A stretch of DNA of 5,560 nucleotides from a virus. Its lineage: Duplodnaviria; Heunggongvirae; Uroviricota; Caudoviricetes. The stretch lies in the IMG/VR virus record IMGVR_UViG_2734482785_000015, one strand, 5' to 3'. Shown here piece after piece: positions 1 to 2,256 of the stretch (position 1 is its first letter; the number at the start of each line of letters is the position of its first letter). A program made the position numbers and the translations under genes. The notes under the pieces were generated by a model. That model saw only the letters and a list, made by a program, of their open reading frames with translations, was not told the origin of the DNA and searched no databases.

Positions 1-1242
1 ATGGCACGAAAAACCACTCCACTAACCATCACGGAGATCAAAAATGCACGACCAGGAGAAAAAGAATACACCCTGCAGGATGGCGGAGGATTGTTTCTTC
101 TGGTGAAGCCCTCCGGATCAAAAATCTGGCGCTTTACGTATTACCGACCCACTGACAAAAAACGAACCATCGTTAGTCTTGGTCCGCTGAATGATGTTTC
201 TCTGTCAGAAGCCAGAGAGCGACGAAACGAATACAGGGGACTTATAGCGAAGGGAGTTGACCCACAGGACCACGAACGCCGGAAACGTGAAGCAGAGAGC
301 CGGAAAAAGGGCAACACGTTCGAAAAAGTTGCCTCTGACTGGTACGAGATGAAAAAAGGCCAGAATCTCGCTTACAACACGATTAAGGATATCTGGCGAT
401 CCATGGAAAAATACGTATTCCCGTACATCGGAAAAACGCCAATAGATACCCTCACCGCTCGCCGCTTTGTTGAGATACTCACCCCCATTAAGGCGCGTGG
501 CAACCTGGAAACCCTGAAACGCGTTTTACAGCGCATCAATGAGGTGATGGATTTTGCTGCCAACAGTGGTCTGATTGACATCAACACCGCCGCGAACGTC
601 CGTAAGGCATTCCCTACCCCCACCAAAAAGCACATGCCAACCATCCGACCGGAACAGCTACCGCAGCTAATGCACGATTTATCGGTCGCCAGCATAGAAC
701 GGCAAACCAGATTGCTGATTGAGTGGCAGCTACTGACCGTAGCACGCCCCGCCGAAGCAGCCGCCACACGCTGGGAAGAAATAAACCTCGATGCCGAAAC
801 CTGGACGATTCCAGCCGGACGCATGAAGATGCGCCGTGACCATGTGATCCCCCTTTGTGGTCAGGCTATGGCTGTACTGGAAACCATGAAGCCAATCAGC
901 GCACACAGGGAACACGTTTTTCCCAGCCTTAAAAACCCGATGCTGCCAATGAGCAGCCAGACCGCTAACGCCGCATTGCGCCGGATGGGTTACGCTGGTG
1001 TGCTGGTGTCTCACGGATTACGCGCCATATTCAGCACAGCAGCGAACGAGGAAGGATTCGAACCGGACGTAATCGAGGCCGCGCTCGCACACGTGGACAC
1101 GAACGAGGTAAGGCGAGCATATAACCGAAGTAACTACCTGGAAAAACGTGTAGTACTTATGCGCTGGTGGGGTGAATTTGTGGAAACCGCAGCAACCGGA
1201 GTGACCATAGCCAGTGGTAAAAGGGGTATCCGTGCGGTGTGA
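1..1242 (+). CDS. int: Tyrosine-type site-specific integrase, P4-like family
   Basis: 413-aa ORF from ATG at 1 to TGA at 1240-1242. The N-terminus (MARKTTPLTITEIK...DGGGLFLLVKPSGSKIWRFTYY) is typical of the arm-binding region of P4-type integrases. C-terminal catalytic-type motifs are readable: ARPAE (Arg codon 745-747), HGLR (1012-1023), LAH, and Tyr374 (1120-1122) ten residues after the second His. Confidence 0.93.
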   Translation: MARKTTPLTITEIKNARPGEKEYTLQDGGGLFLLVKPSGSKIWRFTYYRPTDKKRTIVSLGPLNDVSLSEARERRNEYRGLIAKGVDPQDHERRKREAESRKKGNTFEKVASDWYEMKKGQNLAYNTIKDIWRSMEKYVFPYIGKTPIDTLTARRFVEILTPIKARGNLETLKRVLQRINEVMDFAANSGLIDINTAANVRKAFPTPTKKHMPTIRPEQLPQLMHDLSVASIERQTRLLIEWQLLTVARPAEAAATRWEEINLDAETWTIPAGRMKMRRDHVIPLCGQAMAVLETMKPISAHREHVFPSLKNPMLPMSSQTANAALRRMGYAGVLVSHGLRAIFSTAANEEGFEPDVIEAALAHVDTNEVRRAYNRSNYLEKRVVLMRWWGEFVETAATGVTIASGKRGIRAV

Positions 1243-1355
1243 CTGTACAAAAAACCAGTACAACCAGTGCAAACCATGCTAAACCATCGTATAATCGCCT
1301 ATCTCCTCAACAGACAAGGAAAAACCCGACTCATGAGAAATCGAGATTTATTGAA

Positions 1356-1598
1356 ATGGTCTGGCACGAAAAATCATCCAATGTCTGCGGTGAAGGGCTG
1401 CAACTGGCGTTAATGGCAAATCGTGAATTCTGGTCAACATACGATCCGGAAGACAAATCAACAGCCCCCACAAAACACGAGGTAGTCAGTTTTTTACGCT
1501 CGCGTGGCGCATCGAAAAATCTGGCTGAAAGCATCGACAAGGTGCTGAGGCCCACCAGCCTTAAATGTGGTGGGCGACCTAAGAAGTGGAAACGGTAA
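1356..1598 (+). CDS. Hypothetical small protein (80 aa from ATG 1356; frame is open from GTG 1239 giving 119 aa; alternative ATG at 1413)
   Basis: Open frame with reasonable enterobacterial codon choice (ctg, gcg, cgt, gaa, aaa), ending TAA 1596-1598 and followed 5 nt later by a strong intrinsic terminator. No strong Shine-Dalgarno at any candidate start, so the start is uncertain. No family recognised. Confidence 0.4.
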   Translation: MVWHEKSSNVCGEGLQLALMANREFWSTYDPEDKSTAPTKHEVVSFLRSRGASKNLAESIDKVLRPTSLKCGGRPKKWKR

Positions 1599-1603
1599 TC
1601 ACA

Positions 1604-1633
1604 ATAGCGGCCCCTTGCGGTCGCTATTTTTTT
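1604..1633 (+). terminator. Rho-independent terminator (plus strand)
   Basis: Stem ATAGCGGCC (1604-1612) pairs with GGTCGCTAT (1619-1627) with one G-T wobble, around a CCTTGC loop, followed by a T run (1627-1633). The minus-strand reading lacks a U tract, so it is unidirectional. Confidence 0.65.
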
Positions 1634-1660: not shown

Positions 1661-1703
1661 AAAAAACAGTGAGTACCGTTTTAAAACGGTGAGTACTGTT
1701 TTT
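1661..1703. promoter_or_regulatory. AT-rich imperfect 44-bp palindrome with a perfect 16-bp core and embedded direct repeats, upstream of alpA
   Basis: Perfect palindrome ACCGTTTTAAAACGGT at 1675-1690. Outer arms AAAAAACAGT (1661-1670) and ACTGTTTTT (1695-1703) are complementary. Direct repeats GTGAGTACCGTTTT (1669-1682) and GTGAGTACTGTTTT (1689-1702) sit 20 bp apart. Could be an operator or a weak bidirectional terminator/attenuator; function not determinable from sequence. Confidence 0.5.
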
Positions 1704-1767
1704 CCCGCCCTGCCCTGTTTTACCGTATTTATCACCGGAATACGCCGGATTAACGAGGTAAAACACG

Positions 1768-1974
1768 ATGGAAGTAATCAGAAAAATTCTTACCCGTCAG
1801 GAAGTAAAAAATATTCTGCGCATCAAGGCAGACAGTTCGCTACAGGACATGATCAACGCCGGAAAATTCCCGAAAGGCTTCAAAATCGGTCTGCGTCGTG
1901 TTGGCTGGTATGAAGATGAAGTGCTGGCCTGGCTGAAAGAGCGCGAGGAAGAAGCGCGCGGAACGGCTGCGTAA
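1768..1974 (+). CDS. alpA: AlpA-family (P4 Vis-like, MerR-superfamily HTH) transcriptional regulator / excision activator
   Basis: 68-aa ORF with GAGG (1755-1758) 9 nt upstream of ATG 1768. The translation carries the AlpA-type pattern ILTRQEVKNILRIKADSSLQDMINAGKFPKGFKIGLRRVGWYEDEVLAWL. It lies just downstream of a P4-type integrase, as in P4-like cryptic prophages. Confidence 0.85.
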   Translation: MEVIRKILTRQEVKNILRIKADSSLQDMINAGKFPKGFKIGLRRVGWYEDEVLAWLKEREEEARGTAA

Positions 1975-2120
1975 TGGTGTGAGGCGTAACGCGATGAACA
2001 TAACAAAAAGCGCCCCGTTGCCGGAGCGCCCTTGCGAACAATTAACCTACTGCGCAAAAAATGAATCAGTGCAGTGGGATTATATCAACCGTGTAGCGAA
2101 GCGCCACAATTGCCGGATAA

Positions 2121-2153
2121 CAGGCAAAACAAAGGCCACCTGCTACGGTGGCC
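2121..2153 (-). terminator. Rho-independent terminator (minus strand)
   Basis: GC stem GGCCACC (2134-2140) / GGTGGCC (2147-2153) with a 6-nt loop. On the minus strand it is followed by UUUGUUUUG (complement of 2121-2133). No T run follows on the plus strand. Confidence 0.55.
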
Positions 2154-2256
2154 ATTCGACACAAGCTACACGTTATCCCCAACGCATGAGCATTGCCAAC
2201 AATGCCACATTTGCGGCTGGTGGGCAATGTGATCAGTGTGCTGGCTTGCTGGTGGG

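What the first reader, a model, noticed from the sequence alone, without database searches (positions are those of the whole stretch)
1239..1633. Small ORF between int and alpA that ends at its own strong terminator
The frame opens at a GTG overlapping the integrase stop (GTGA at 1239-1242) and closes 5 nt before a GC-rich intrinsic terminator. The terminator therefore ends the int transcript about 360 nt after the int stop and insulates alpA from integrase read-through. The 80-119-aa product is basic at its C-terminus (GGRPKKWKR) and has no family I recognise. It could be an accessory excision/recombination factor or a non-translated 3' UTR.
Basis: seen in the sequence. Interest (0 to 1): 0.4.

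Follow-up and report, generated by a model that had tools for sequence, protein, structure and literature searches.

The report
SOS-boxed small gene between int and alpA
The small ORF is a real, strongly conserved 80-amino-acid gene of an E. coli phage satellite, with its own DNA-damage (LexA) operator, promoter and terminator, so a satellite class described as SOS-independent may carry a direct SOS input next to its master switch alpA.

Summary
The ORF and the terminator are real.

- **Coding gene.** Across 101 copies (35 DNA haplotypes) the core evolves under strong purifying selection: median dN/dS 0.10, and variable sites by codon position 23/15/57.
- **Start.** The only start conserved in all lineages is ATG 1356, giving 80 aa. 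GTG 1239, which overlaps the int stop, exists only in this sublineage.
- **Own control signals.** A LexA-type box (1241-1260, 17 bits) follows the int stop. An invariant TATAAT (1290-1295) lies exactly 47 nt further on, in 34 of 36 upstream variants.
- **Terminator.** A hairpin plus T-run follows the stop in all 42 downstream variants, with two unrelated stem sequences.
- **Family.** The protein is the stand-alone C-terminal domain (three or four helices plus a GGRPKK AT-hook-like tail) of an unannotated family. Its 230-245-aa members sit in the same int-X-alpA slot in Salmonella, Dickeya-like, Pseudomonas and E. coli islands and also carry LexA boxes.

Most likely this is an SOS-derepressed, self-terminated gene for a small DNA-binding or adaptor factor of the satellite. 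The function is inferred, not shown. One observation stays unexplained: the leader keeps the reading frame in every lineage.

The parts
1..1242 (+). P4-type tyrosine integrase (413 aa); left end of the island, next to tRNA-Pro/yejM in the identical genome copy
   Evidence: Pfam Arm-DNA-bind_3, Phage_int_M and Phage_integrase; annotation of the 100% identical locus L001
1241..1260 (.). LexA (SOS) box-like palindrome GACTGTACAAAAAACCAGTA (CTG 1243-1245, CAG 1256-1258), directly after the int stop
   Evidence: PWM score 17.1 bits against 13.0-26.5 for 25 known E. coli boxes. It is the only window site at or above 8 bits; the 95th percentile of the best score in 2000 shuffles is 12.3. Present in 34/36 upstream variants. 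24 of 28 contexts at or above 15 bits in 781 kb of fetched loci lie upstream of a gene of this family.
1267..1295 (+). Putative sigma-70 promoter: weak -35 GTGCAA (1267-1272), 17-nt spacer, perfect -10 TATAAT (1290-1295); predicted start near 1302
   Evidence: TATAAT is invariant and always 47 nt from the box CTG, while the sequence between them diverges. The Salmonella long-form locus L127 has the same layout: box, then TAGACA-17-GATAAT, 10/12. The window promoter itself fails the scan's -35 criterion.
1356..1598 (+). Gene X: 80-aa protein (MVWHEKSS...GGRPKKWKR), stop TAA 1596-1598
   Evidence: This is the only in-frame start conserved in all 36 upstream variants (ATG, or GTG preceded by AAGGAG). 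PGAP CDS WP_000262088.1. NG86 omega median 0.10; 9 synonymous and 0 nonsynonymous differences against L003.
1389..1553 (+). Conserved helical domain (GEGLQLAL...FWSTYDPEDxxTAP...LRP), residues 12-66
   Evidence: Alignment A1 lists 36 invariant columns. The profile finds 664 proteins in which this is mostly the C-terminal domain. AF2 gives helices 11-26, 40-49, 54-64 and 67-70, mean pLDDT 77.5.
1554..1595 (+). Basic AT-hook-like tail TSLKCGGRPKKWKR (residues 67-80)
   Evidence: K70, G72, G73, R74, P75, K77 and W78 are invariant in A1. Relatives carry RGRP, GRPRK or GPRK tails. pLDDT is low here.
1603..1633 (+). Intrinsic terminator: stem 1603-1612/1619-1628, loop 1613-1618, T-run 1627-1633
   Evidence: All 42 downstream variants have a hairpin plus T6 or longer starting 27-28 nt after the stop codon begins, with two non-homologous stems (AATAGCGGCC.. 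and GCGGCAGAAATGCCGC).
1590..1602 (-). Inverted copy of the 13-mer GTGAGTACYGTTT, overlapping the X stop codon
   Evidence: (I3)
1662..1703 (.). Two 20-nt tandem repeats forming an imperfect 42-bp palindrome (core ACCGTTTTAAAACGGT 1675-1690) about 80 nt upstream of alpA; candidate operator
   Evidence: The core palindrome is present in 38/42 downstream variants. The motif cluster exceeds chance (5 matches against 0.39 expected in L001).
1768..1974 (+). alpA (68 aa), the satellite's master activator gene
   Evidence: Pfam Phage_AlpA 4.5e-8; role taken from PMC6092414 and PMC11773190

Best explanation
Window 1241-1633 is a self-contained transcription unit of an E. coli PICI-type phage satellite. 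It sits between the P4-type integrase and the master activator alpA.

Layout: a LexA operator (1241-1260) abuts a sigma-70 promoter (-10 TATAAT at 1290-1295). A leader of about 55 nt follows, then an 80-aa ORF (1356-1598), then an intrinsic terminator (1603-1633).

The product is the stand-alone C-terminal domain of an uncharacterised family: three or four helices with the FWSTYDPxDxxTAP...LRP signature and a basic GGRPKK AT-hook-like tail. The 230-245-aa members of that family occupy the same int-X-alpA slot in many gammaproteobacterial islands.

Proposed working (inferred): host LexA keeps the gene off. DNA damage, the same signal that induces lambdoid helper prophages, derepresses it. The terminator confines this SOS transcription, and any int read-through, so that alpA stays under its own helper-dependent control. 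The small basic protein then acts as a DNA-binding or adaptor factor on the neighbouring int/alpA control DNA (repeats at 1590-1602 and 1662-1703) to prime excision or induction.

Shown: coding status, start site, conservation of box, -10 and terminator, synteny, domain family.
Inferred: LexA binding, promoter activity, DNA binding, role in the satellite cycle.
For: Coding:
- 35 haplotypes in 101 copies; omega median 0.10 for pairs with dS above 0.3.
- Window against L003: 9 synonymous and 0 nonsynonymous differences.
- Variable sites by codon position 23/15/57.
- Only 2 of 101 copies are disrupted.

Start.

LexA box:
- 17.1 bits here and 17-20 bits in the other short-form lineages; it is the top site of each locus.
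- Fixed 47-nt spacing to an invariant TATAAT in 34/36 variants.
- Long-form relatives carry 14.5-24.2-bit boxes 129-173 nt upstream of their start: Salmonella 24.2, Dickeya-like 22.1, E. coli 18.1, Pseudomonas 15.9, and 14.5-21.1 in L016, L017, L020, L117 and L118.
- L127 shows box, then TAGACA-17-GATAAT.
- 24/28 strong sites in 781 kb lie upstream of this family.

Terminator.

Synteny int-X-AlpA in distant relatives.

Domain and tail.

Distribution: chromosomal islands and satellites only. 374/5426 complete E. coli genomes, always on the chromosome, no phage record, and one mislabelled 'plasmid' record.

Literature: alpA is helper-induced and not induced by mitomycin C alone, which fits an insulating terminator (PMC6092414, PMC11773190).
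Against: - No experiment shows LexA binding or SOS induction.
- The PWM was built from E. coli boxes recalled from memory.
- The box lies upstream of the -35 (about -61 to -42), not over the -10 as in most SOS genes.
- The window's -35 is poor (3/6), and the promoter scan calls nothing here.
- The Shine-Dalgarno before ATG 1356 is weak.
- Some relatives lack a box (L022, L023, L056-59, L116; degenerate in L130).
- The published PICIs tested for SOS independence are different elements, and EcCIMP1 lacks this gene.
Confidence: 0.6

Rival explanations
1. First reader's model. The ORF is translationally coupled to int through the GTGA overlap (119-aa product), or it is merely the untranslated 3' tail of the int mRNA, which the terminator ends.
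For: GTG 1239 overlaps TGA 1240-1242 in this window, and AAGGGG lies 13 nt upstream. The frame stays open from 1221 in almost all variants.
Against: The codon is GTA in all lineages whose int ends in TAA or TAG. It is a start only in the window's sublineage. L076 has an in-frame stop in the extension. The leader shows no third-position bias, 20/32/22. A conserved box and -10 sit inside the supposed coding extension. The UTR-only reading is excluded by omega 0.10.
Confidence: 0.05
2. A decaying remnant. The short ORF is what an N-terminal deletion left of the 230-245-aa family member, and it has no function of its own.
For: It starts exactly where the C-terminal domain of the long forms starts. 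The leader keeps a fragment (GAAAAACCCGAC) of the long-form 5' UTR. The Shine-Dalgarno is weak.
Against: Omega is about 0.1 while synonymous sites are saturated between lineages. A start codon is kept in all lineages, with a perfect AAGGAG where the start is GTG. 99 of 101 copies are intact. Box, -10 and terminator are all retained.
Confidence: 0.07
3. An SOS-induced protein-binding effector rather than a DNA binder. Examples would be an antirepressor aimed at a helper-prophage repressor, or a modulator of Int, AlpA, RecA or LexA. The invariant FW.TYDP.D..TAP surface would then be a protein interface.
Against: The RecX relation fails a profile comparison (probability 0.7%). The basic GRP-type tail conserved across the family points to nucleic acid. 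No partner is identified.
Confidence: 0.2
4. Translation enters the X frame from int by a -1 shift near AAA AGG GGT (1219-1227). This would give an Int-X fusion whose linker is the 'leader', alongside the free 80-aa form.
For: The X frame equals the int frame -1. It opens at 1221, inside int. Over 28 distinct box-to-core segments it contains 1 stop, against 121 and 18 in the other two frames. All six segment lengths are 2 mod 3, and a 42-nt insert in L010 is also in frame. The X-alpA spacer, by contrast, varies by 1-2 nt. GGTAAAAGGGG, with a rare AGG codon, is invariant.
Against: There is no canonical X XXY YYZ heptamer. No Int-domain fusions appear among 10 larger hits tested. Long forms have in-frame stops in their leaders and a variable frame relative to int. 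One other frame is also often open. The length evidence rests on only about five independent events.
Confidence: 0.05

Closest known systems
LexA-controlled accessory genes of mobile elements (coliphage 186 tum, Gifsy-phage antirepressors, integron intI promoters)
   Same: A small gene of a mobile element sits behind a CTG-N10-CAG box, so host DNA damage switches it on. It is placed in the element's control or recombination region.
   Different: No sequence or fold similarity to Tum or DinI-type proteins was found. The element is a PICI-type satellite, whose induction is reported to be helper-dependent and SOS-independent (PMC6092414). The box abuts the -35 rather than covering the -10.
AlpA / Vis / Xis (HTH_17, Phage_AlpA) recombination directionality factors and regulators
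   Different: The window protein has no Phage_AlpA or HTH_17 match. It coexists with a genuine alpA 170 nt downstream.
SaPI Stl / Gram-positive PICI Rpr master regulators
   Same: A regulator gene next to int at the satellite's control junction. In the long forms a conserved C-terminal module is joined to a separate N-terminal domain through a variable linker.
   Different: It is co-oriented with int and alpA rather than divergent. There is no homology, a LexA box is present, and repressor activity is not shown.
AT-hook minor-groove DNA-binding motif (R-G-R-P core)
   Same: A G-R-P core with flanking lysines and arginines lies at the flexible C-terminus. Several relatives carry canonical RGRP or GRPRK.
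   Different: Here the first arginine is glycine (GGRPKK). Many relatives have GPR or GRR instead. Binding has not been tested.

Membership tests
Gram-negative PICI (phage-inducible chromosomal island) int-alpA module | Tyrosine integrase at the island end, next to a tRNA attachment site | tested here: met
   Pfam integrase domains. tRNA-Pro lies 209 nt upstream of int in the identical locus L001.
Gram-negative PICI (phage-inducible chromosomal island) int-alpA module | alpA co-oriented downstream of int, followed by a primase/replicase gene, with no virion or lysis genes in the stretch examined | tested here: met
   alpA matches Phage_AlpA at 4.5e-8. A DUF927 primase, Icd-like, DUF4222 and PerC genes follow in L001. 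Identical IMG/VR contigs are 7-14 kb.
Gram-negative PICI (phage-inducible chromosomal island) int-alpA module | Induction and packaging by a helper phage | not testable with these tools
   Needs helper infection or induction and transfer assays.
LexA (SOS) regulon gene | 16-bp CTG-N10-CAG palindrome that scores within the range of proven boxes | tested here: met
   17.1 bits against 13.0-26.5 for known boxes; shuffle 95th percentile 12.3. Conserved in 34/36 variants and in long-form relatives.
LexA (SOS) regulon gene | Box overlaps or abuts the core promoter, so that LexA blocks RNA polymerase | tested here: inconclusive
   The box ends 6 nt before the weak -35, with a fixed 47 nt to TATAAT. 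L127 has box, 5 nt, then TAGACA-17-GATAAT. In L017 the box touches the -10. No transcription start has been mapped.
LexA (SOS) regulon gene | LexA binding and RecA-dependent induction by DNA damage | not testable with these tools
   Needs EMSA or ChIP, and reporter or qRT-PCR assays in lexA mutants.
Rho-independent (intrinsic) terminator | GC-rich hairpin immediately followed by a U-tract | tested here: met
   10-bp stem, 6-nt loop, T7; -14.3 kcal/mol, z -3.25. Present in 42/42 variants with two different stems.
Excisionase / AlpA family (Pfam PF05930, PF12728) | Sequence match to the HTH_17 or Phage_AlpA profile | tested here: not met
   No hit for the 119-aa or 61-aa translations in Pfam, PHROGs or NCBIfam, nor for 25 family members in Pfam.
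AT-hook | R-G-R-P core flanked by basic residues in a disordered segment | tested here: inconclusive
   GGRPKKWKR: G-R-P and the flanking K/R are invariant, but the first R is missing. The tail has low pLDDT. Canonical RGRP or GRPRK occurs in relatives P0021, P0023 and P0027.
RecX three-helix repeat | Profile-level sequence similarity to RecX | tested here: not met
Stop-start overlap (GTGA) translational coupling with int | Start codon overlapping the upstream stop, conserved among relatives | tested here: not met
   GTG occurs only where int ends in TGA, and is GTA elsewhere.
Programmed -1 ribosomal frameshift fusion | Slippery X XXY YYZ heptamer in the overlap, and an open -1 frame | tested here: inconclusive
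   The -1 frame is open and its length is kept in frame. No canonical heptamer lies in 1221-1239.

The most novel reading that the evidence does not exclude
Gene X is an unrecognised SOS input of Gram-negative PICI-type satellites. It would be a LexA-repressed factor, always wedged between int and alpA, that senses host DNA damage in parallel with helper induction and primes excision or alpA activation. In the short-form E. coli lineages it might additionally be made as an Int-X fusion by a frame change at the end of int. Either would revise the current picture that these satellites are induced only by helper-phage products.
Probability: 0.25. Interest if true: 0.7.

Novelty: new variant of a known kind. 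Interest (0 to 1): 0.5.

Why it matters
Gram-negative PICIs are described as lacking a known master repressor and as being switched on through alpA by an unidentified helper signal, independently of SOS (PMC6092414, PMC11773190).

This gene family is conserved and under purifying selection. It has no curated annotation, carries a LexA box, and sits in the slot immediately upstream of alpA in islands from E. coli, Salmonella, Dickeya-like bacteria and Pseudomonas. That makes it a concrete candidate for a missing regulatory input, and it can be tested with simple reporter, EMSA and deletion experiments.

It also defines an uncurated protein domain (664 profile hits) that could be added to family databases and to satellite-detection marker sets.

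Tried and rejected
- **Curated families.** Pfam, PHROGs and NCBIfam gave nothing for the ORF or for long-form relatives. The weak DUF3742 and RecX_HTH1 hits were not reproducible.
- **Rfam.** Nothing in the region; only a sub-threshold isrD-like hairpin elsewhere.
- **PDB by sequence.** No relative.
- **RecX homology.** Rejected by hhalign, 0.7%.
- **Ankyrin proteins P0016 and P0155.** False positives among the HMMER hits.
- **Natural Int-X fusions.** Sought among larger hits; none found.
- **Minus-strand ORF 1331-1735.** No family, and the codon-position bias fits the + frame.
- **Genome-contig scan.** Only 2 loci, because the pattern was strict.
- **Phage and plasmid collections.** No genuine match.
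- **EcCIMP1.** Checked as a characterised PICI; it lacks the gene.
- **Literature.** Searches found no description of this ORF or of a LexA box in PICIs. SEN1998 of ROD21 is an AlpA-type RDF, not this family.
Full report
**Context.** The window matches E. coli chromosomes at 100% identity. There it is the left end of an island inserted at tRNA-Pro beside yejM. The gene order is integrase, a small hypothetical gene, an AlpA-type regulator, YlcI/YnfO, Icd-like, DUF4222, a DUF927 primase, ssb, ProQ/FinO and PerC. This is the layout of a Gram-negative phage-inducible chromosomal island (PICI) as described in PMC6092414 and PMC11773190. Pfam confirms a P4-type integrase (1-1242) and AlpA (1768-1974).

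**Checking the observation.** The ORF at 1239-1598 is present as described. So are the GTG that overlaps the int stop (GTGA 1239-1242) and the GGRPKKWKR C-terminus. The hairpin at 1603-1628 and its T-run (1627-1633) are there too. The terminator scan finds the hairpin. It folds at -14.3 kcal/mol, z = -3.25.

**Is it a gene?** A word-based protein search found 15 clusters. All named sources are E. coli, apart from one chimeric entry filed under a nematode assembly. The 75-80-aa variants are 62-93% identical to the window protein.

I collected 120 further loci, from encoding contigs, IMG/VR, metagenomes and genomes. Of the fetched loci, 101 carry the short form, in 35 DNA haplotypes.
- Nei-Gojobori dN/dS has a median of 0.10 (maximum 0.25) for pairs with dS above 0.3.
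- Synonymous sites are saturated between the major lineages.
- The window differs from L003 by 9 synonymous and 0 nonsynonymous changes.
- Variable sites fall 23/15/57 on codon positions 1/2/3.
- Only two copies are damaged: L119 has a frameshift and L055 loses the last two residues.

The 'untranslated 3' UTR' alternative is therefore excluded.

**Which start?** Aligning four deep lineages shows that int ends in TGA, TAA or TAG. The codon at 1239 is GTG only where the stop is TGA, and GTA otherwise.

Over 36 distinct upstream sequences, the only in-frame start present everywhere lies 24-36 nt before the conserved core. That is ATG 1356 in the window. In lineages where it is GTG, a perfect AAGGAG precedes it. 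One variant (L076) has an in-frame stop inside the supposed N-terminal extension. The product is thus 80 aa, as PGAP annotates it here. The 119-aa form is specific to this sublineage at best.

**A LexA box and a promoter between int and the ORF.** The same alignment shows two islands of conservation in otherwise diverged DNA. One is a CTG-N10-CAG palindrome just after the int stop (window 1241-1260, GACTGTACAAAAAACCAGTA). The other is an invariant TATAAT (1290-1295).

I scored the box with a weight matrix built from 25 E. coli LexA boxes. These were recalled from the literature, so this rests on my own knowledge.
- The window site scores 17.1 bits; the known boxes score 13.0-26.5.
- It is the only site in the window at or above 8 bits.
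- The best score in 2000 shuffles of the window has a 95th percentile of 12.3.
- The box is present in 34 of 36 upstream variants. One exception (L005) carries a CTG-to-TTG point mutation.
- The box always lies exactly 47 nt before TATAAT, although the sequence between them differs strongly.
- In 781 kb of fetched loci, 24 of the 28 distinct contexts scoring at least 15 bits lie upstream of a gene of this family.

The window's -35 is weak (GTGCAA, 3/6), and the simple promoter scan calls nothing here. The Salmonella long-form locus L127 has the same architecture with a good promoter: a 24.2-bit box, 5 nt, then TAGACA-17-GATAAT (10/12, the best promoter call in that region). In L017 the box touches an extended -10.

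The box therefore abuts the -35 rather than covering the -10. This is unusual, and it is the main caveat on the LexA reading.

**The terminator.** All 42 distinct downstream sequences have a hairpin followed by at least six T, starting 27-28 nt after the stop codon begins. Two unrelated stems are used, AATAGCGGCC...GGTCGCTATT and GCGGCAGAAATGCCGC. This conserves function without conserving sequence.

Box, promoter, ORF and terminator together make a self-contained unit. The transcript it mainly ends, however, is probably the ORF's own. Published work shows that alpA reporters respond to helper induction and not to mitomycin C alone. That would fit such insulation, but those experiments used other PICIs, and one of them, EcCIMP1, lacks this gene.

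**What is the protein?** A full HMMER search with the family profile found 664 proteins at E up to 0.001. In almost all of them the match is the C-terminal 55-70 residues of proteins of 190-280 aa. Two strong hits are ankyrin false positives.

The shared signature is (H)xSEGLxxxxxAIxxFWSTYDPxDxxTAPTKxxVxxYLxxxGxSxNxAxAxDxxLRPxxLxxxGR(P/R)K. None of Pfam, NCBIfam or PHROGs covers it.

The closest long forms (230-245 aa) occur in E. coli, Salmonella, Enterobacter, Serratia, Erwinia, Yersinia, Dickeya, Pantoea, Regiella, Pseudomonas and Azotobacter. All are annotated as hypothetical. Their architecture is a well-conserved N-domain (residues 1-125), a variable disordered linker, and then this C-domain. 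The E. coli short form begins exactly at the start of the C-domain.

Structure predictions:
- **Short form.** Helices 11-26, 40-49, 54-64 and 67-70; mean pLDDT 77.5; floppy tail.
- **Long form.** Mean pLDDT 80; N-domain about 95; linker below 50.

The tail residues K-x-G-G-R-P-K-K-W are invariant in the short forms. Relatives carry RGRP, GRPRK or GPRK, so the tail is AT-hook-like. By my count from the sequence, the protein has a net charge of about +6, most of it in the last 16 residues.

**Synteny.** In every case where the flanks were available, the family member lies downstream of a P4-type integrase. In all but two it lies directly upstream of an AlpA/HTH_17 gene.
- The short forms sit at no fewer than three chromosomal sites.
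- The long forms were seen in E. coli, Salmonella, Enterobacter, Dickeya-like, Pseudomonas and uncultured gammaproteobacteria.
- The two exceptions are L017 and L135. In L017 the upstream neighbour is a type III restriction enzyme and the contig ends before any downstream gene. In L135 no AlpA gene follows the family member.

Long forms carry LexA boxes of 14.5-24.2 bits, 129-173 nt upstream of their start, in most enterobacterial and Pseudomonas loci. Several environmental relatives have none.

At the DNA level the short form is detectable in 374 of 5426 complete E. coli genomes. It is always chromosomal and always annotated 'hypothetical protein'. It is absent from phage records and from genuine plasmids.

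**Mechanism proposed.** Shown here: a real 80-aa gene with a conserved operator-like box, a -10, a terminator and a fixed genomic slot.

Inferred: LexA represses it and SOS derepresses it, in step with induction of helper prophages. The terminator keeps this transcription out of alpA. The protein binds DNA or a partner at the int/alpA junction. Candidate sites are the 13-mer GTGAGTACYGTTT, present once inverted over the X stop codon (1590-1602) and twice in the 42-bp palindrome at 1662-1703. The AT-rich core of that palindrome, ACCGTTTTAAAACGGT, is conserved in 38/42 variants.

The evidence for and against each is listed in the rival section.

**An unexplained feature.** In the short-form lineages the distance from the box to the conserved core takes six values: 116, 122, 125, 137, 149 and 152 nt. 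All are equal modulo 3. A 42-nt insert in L010 is also in frame.

The X frame is the int frame -1 and opens at 1221, inside int. Over 28 distinct segments it contains one stop, against 121 and 18 in the other two frames. The X-alpA spacer, by contrast, varies by single nucleotides.

Against translation of the leader:
- it has no start codon in most lineages;
- it shows no third-position bias (20/32/22);
- the long forms do not share the property;
- no canonical slippery heptamer is present.

Chance (roughly 1 in 100-250) or translation entering from int cannot be told apart here.

**Novelty and verdict.** I found no description of this ORF, of its family, or of a LexA box in PICIs in the searchable literature. 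It is best classed as a new variant of a known kind: an SOS-controlled accessory or regulatory gene of a mobile element, but in a satellite class thought to be SOS-independent, and belonging to an uncurated protein family. Interest is moderate (0.5). The anatomy is solid and the hypothesis is directly testable, but the function is inferred.

Noticed in passing
window 1662-1703 (also 1590-1602 on the - strand and 1641-1653): Two 20-nt tandem repeats form an imperfect 42-bp palindrome (core ACCGTTTTAAAACGGT) about 80 nt upstream of alpA. A third, inverted copy of the 13-mer overlaps the stop codon of the small gene. The core is conserved in 38/42 variants. It is a likely operator for AlpA, for the small protein or for a helper factor.
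   Followed up: partly
window 1716-1733 / 1748-1765: An 18-nt inverted repeat (78% complementary, 14 nt apart) in the alpA leader. Its right arm contains the alpA Shine-Dalgarno GAGG, so it could occlude alpA translation.
   Followed up: no
window 1221-1355 and the equivalent leaders in L002-L113: The leader between int and ATG 1356 stays stop-free in the gene's frame (1 stop in 28 variants). Its length varies only in multiples of 3, although it has no start codon and no codon-position bias. This is unexplained.
   Followed up: partly
L127:1900-2000, L020:2880-2988, L122:3900-4000, L130, L133: Long-form relatives share a conserved 5' UTR of about 130 nt. It has long-range pairing GGCTATGCC...GGCATAGCC around an inner hairpin CCCGAAAACCCGTACACCTCTGCGGG. 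The window leader keeps only a remnant (GAAAAACCCGAC, 1319-1330). This may be a regulatory RNA structure.
   Followed up: no
L121 (EcCIMP1, NZ_CP139039.1) 26379-26398 and 17958-17977: The characterised PICI EcCIMP1 lacks the small gene. It still has a weak CTG-N10-CAG site (10.8 bits) right after its int stop. It also has a strong 20.2-bit LexA-like box just upstream of its minus-strand operon that includes a DNA-ejection protein and a lytic transglycosylase.
   Followed up: partly
P0014 (90 aa, labelled Cooperia oncophora): A chimeric protein joins residues 1-42 of the small protein to the C-terminal part of AlpA. It is a deletion variant of this locus sitting in a nematode assembly, presumably from bacterial contamination.
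   Followed up: no
window 2128-2170 (-) and 2006-2033 (-): A sub-threshold isrD-like Hfq-sRNA/terminator hairpin (Rfam 22.4 bits against a gathering score of 37). A strong terminator-like hairpin on the minus strand lies just after alpA.
   Followed up: no
L122:4690-4950: In the E. coli long-form island, the region between the family gene and alpA carries four copies of a different 13-mer (AATAGTNCCCACC). One copy lies inside the gene's terminator hairpin. This parallels the repeat arrangement in the window.
   Followed up: no
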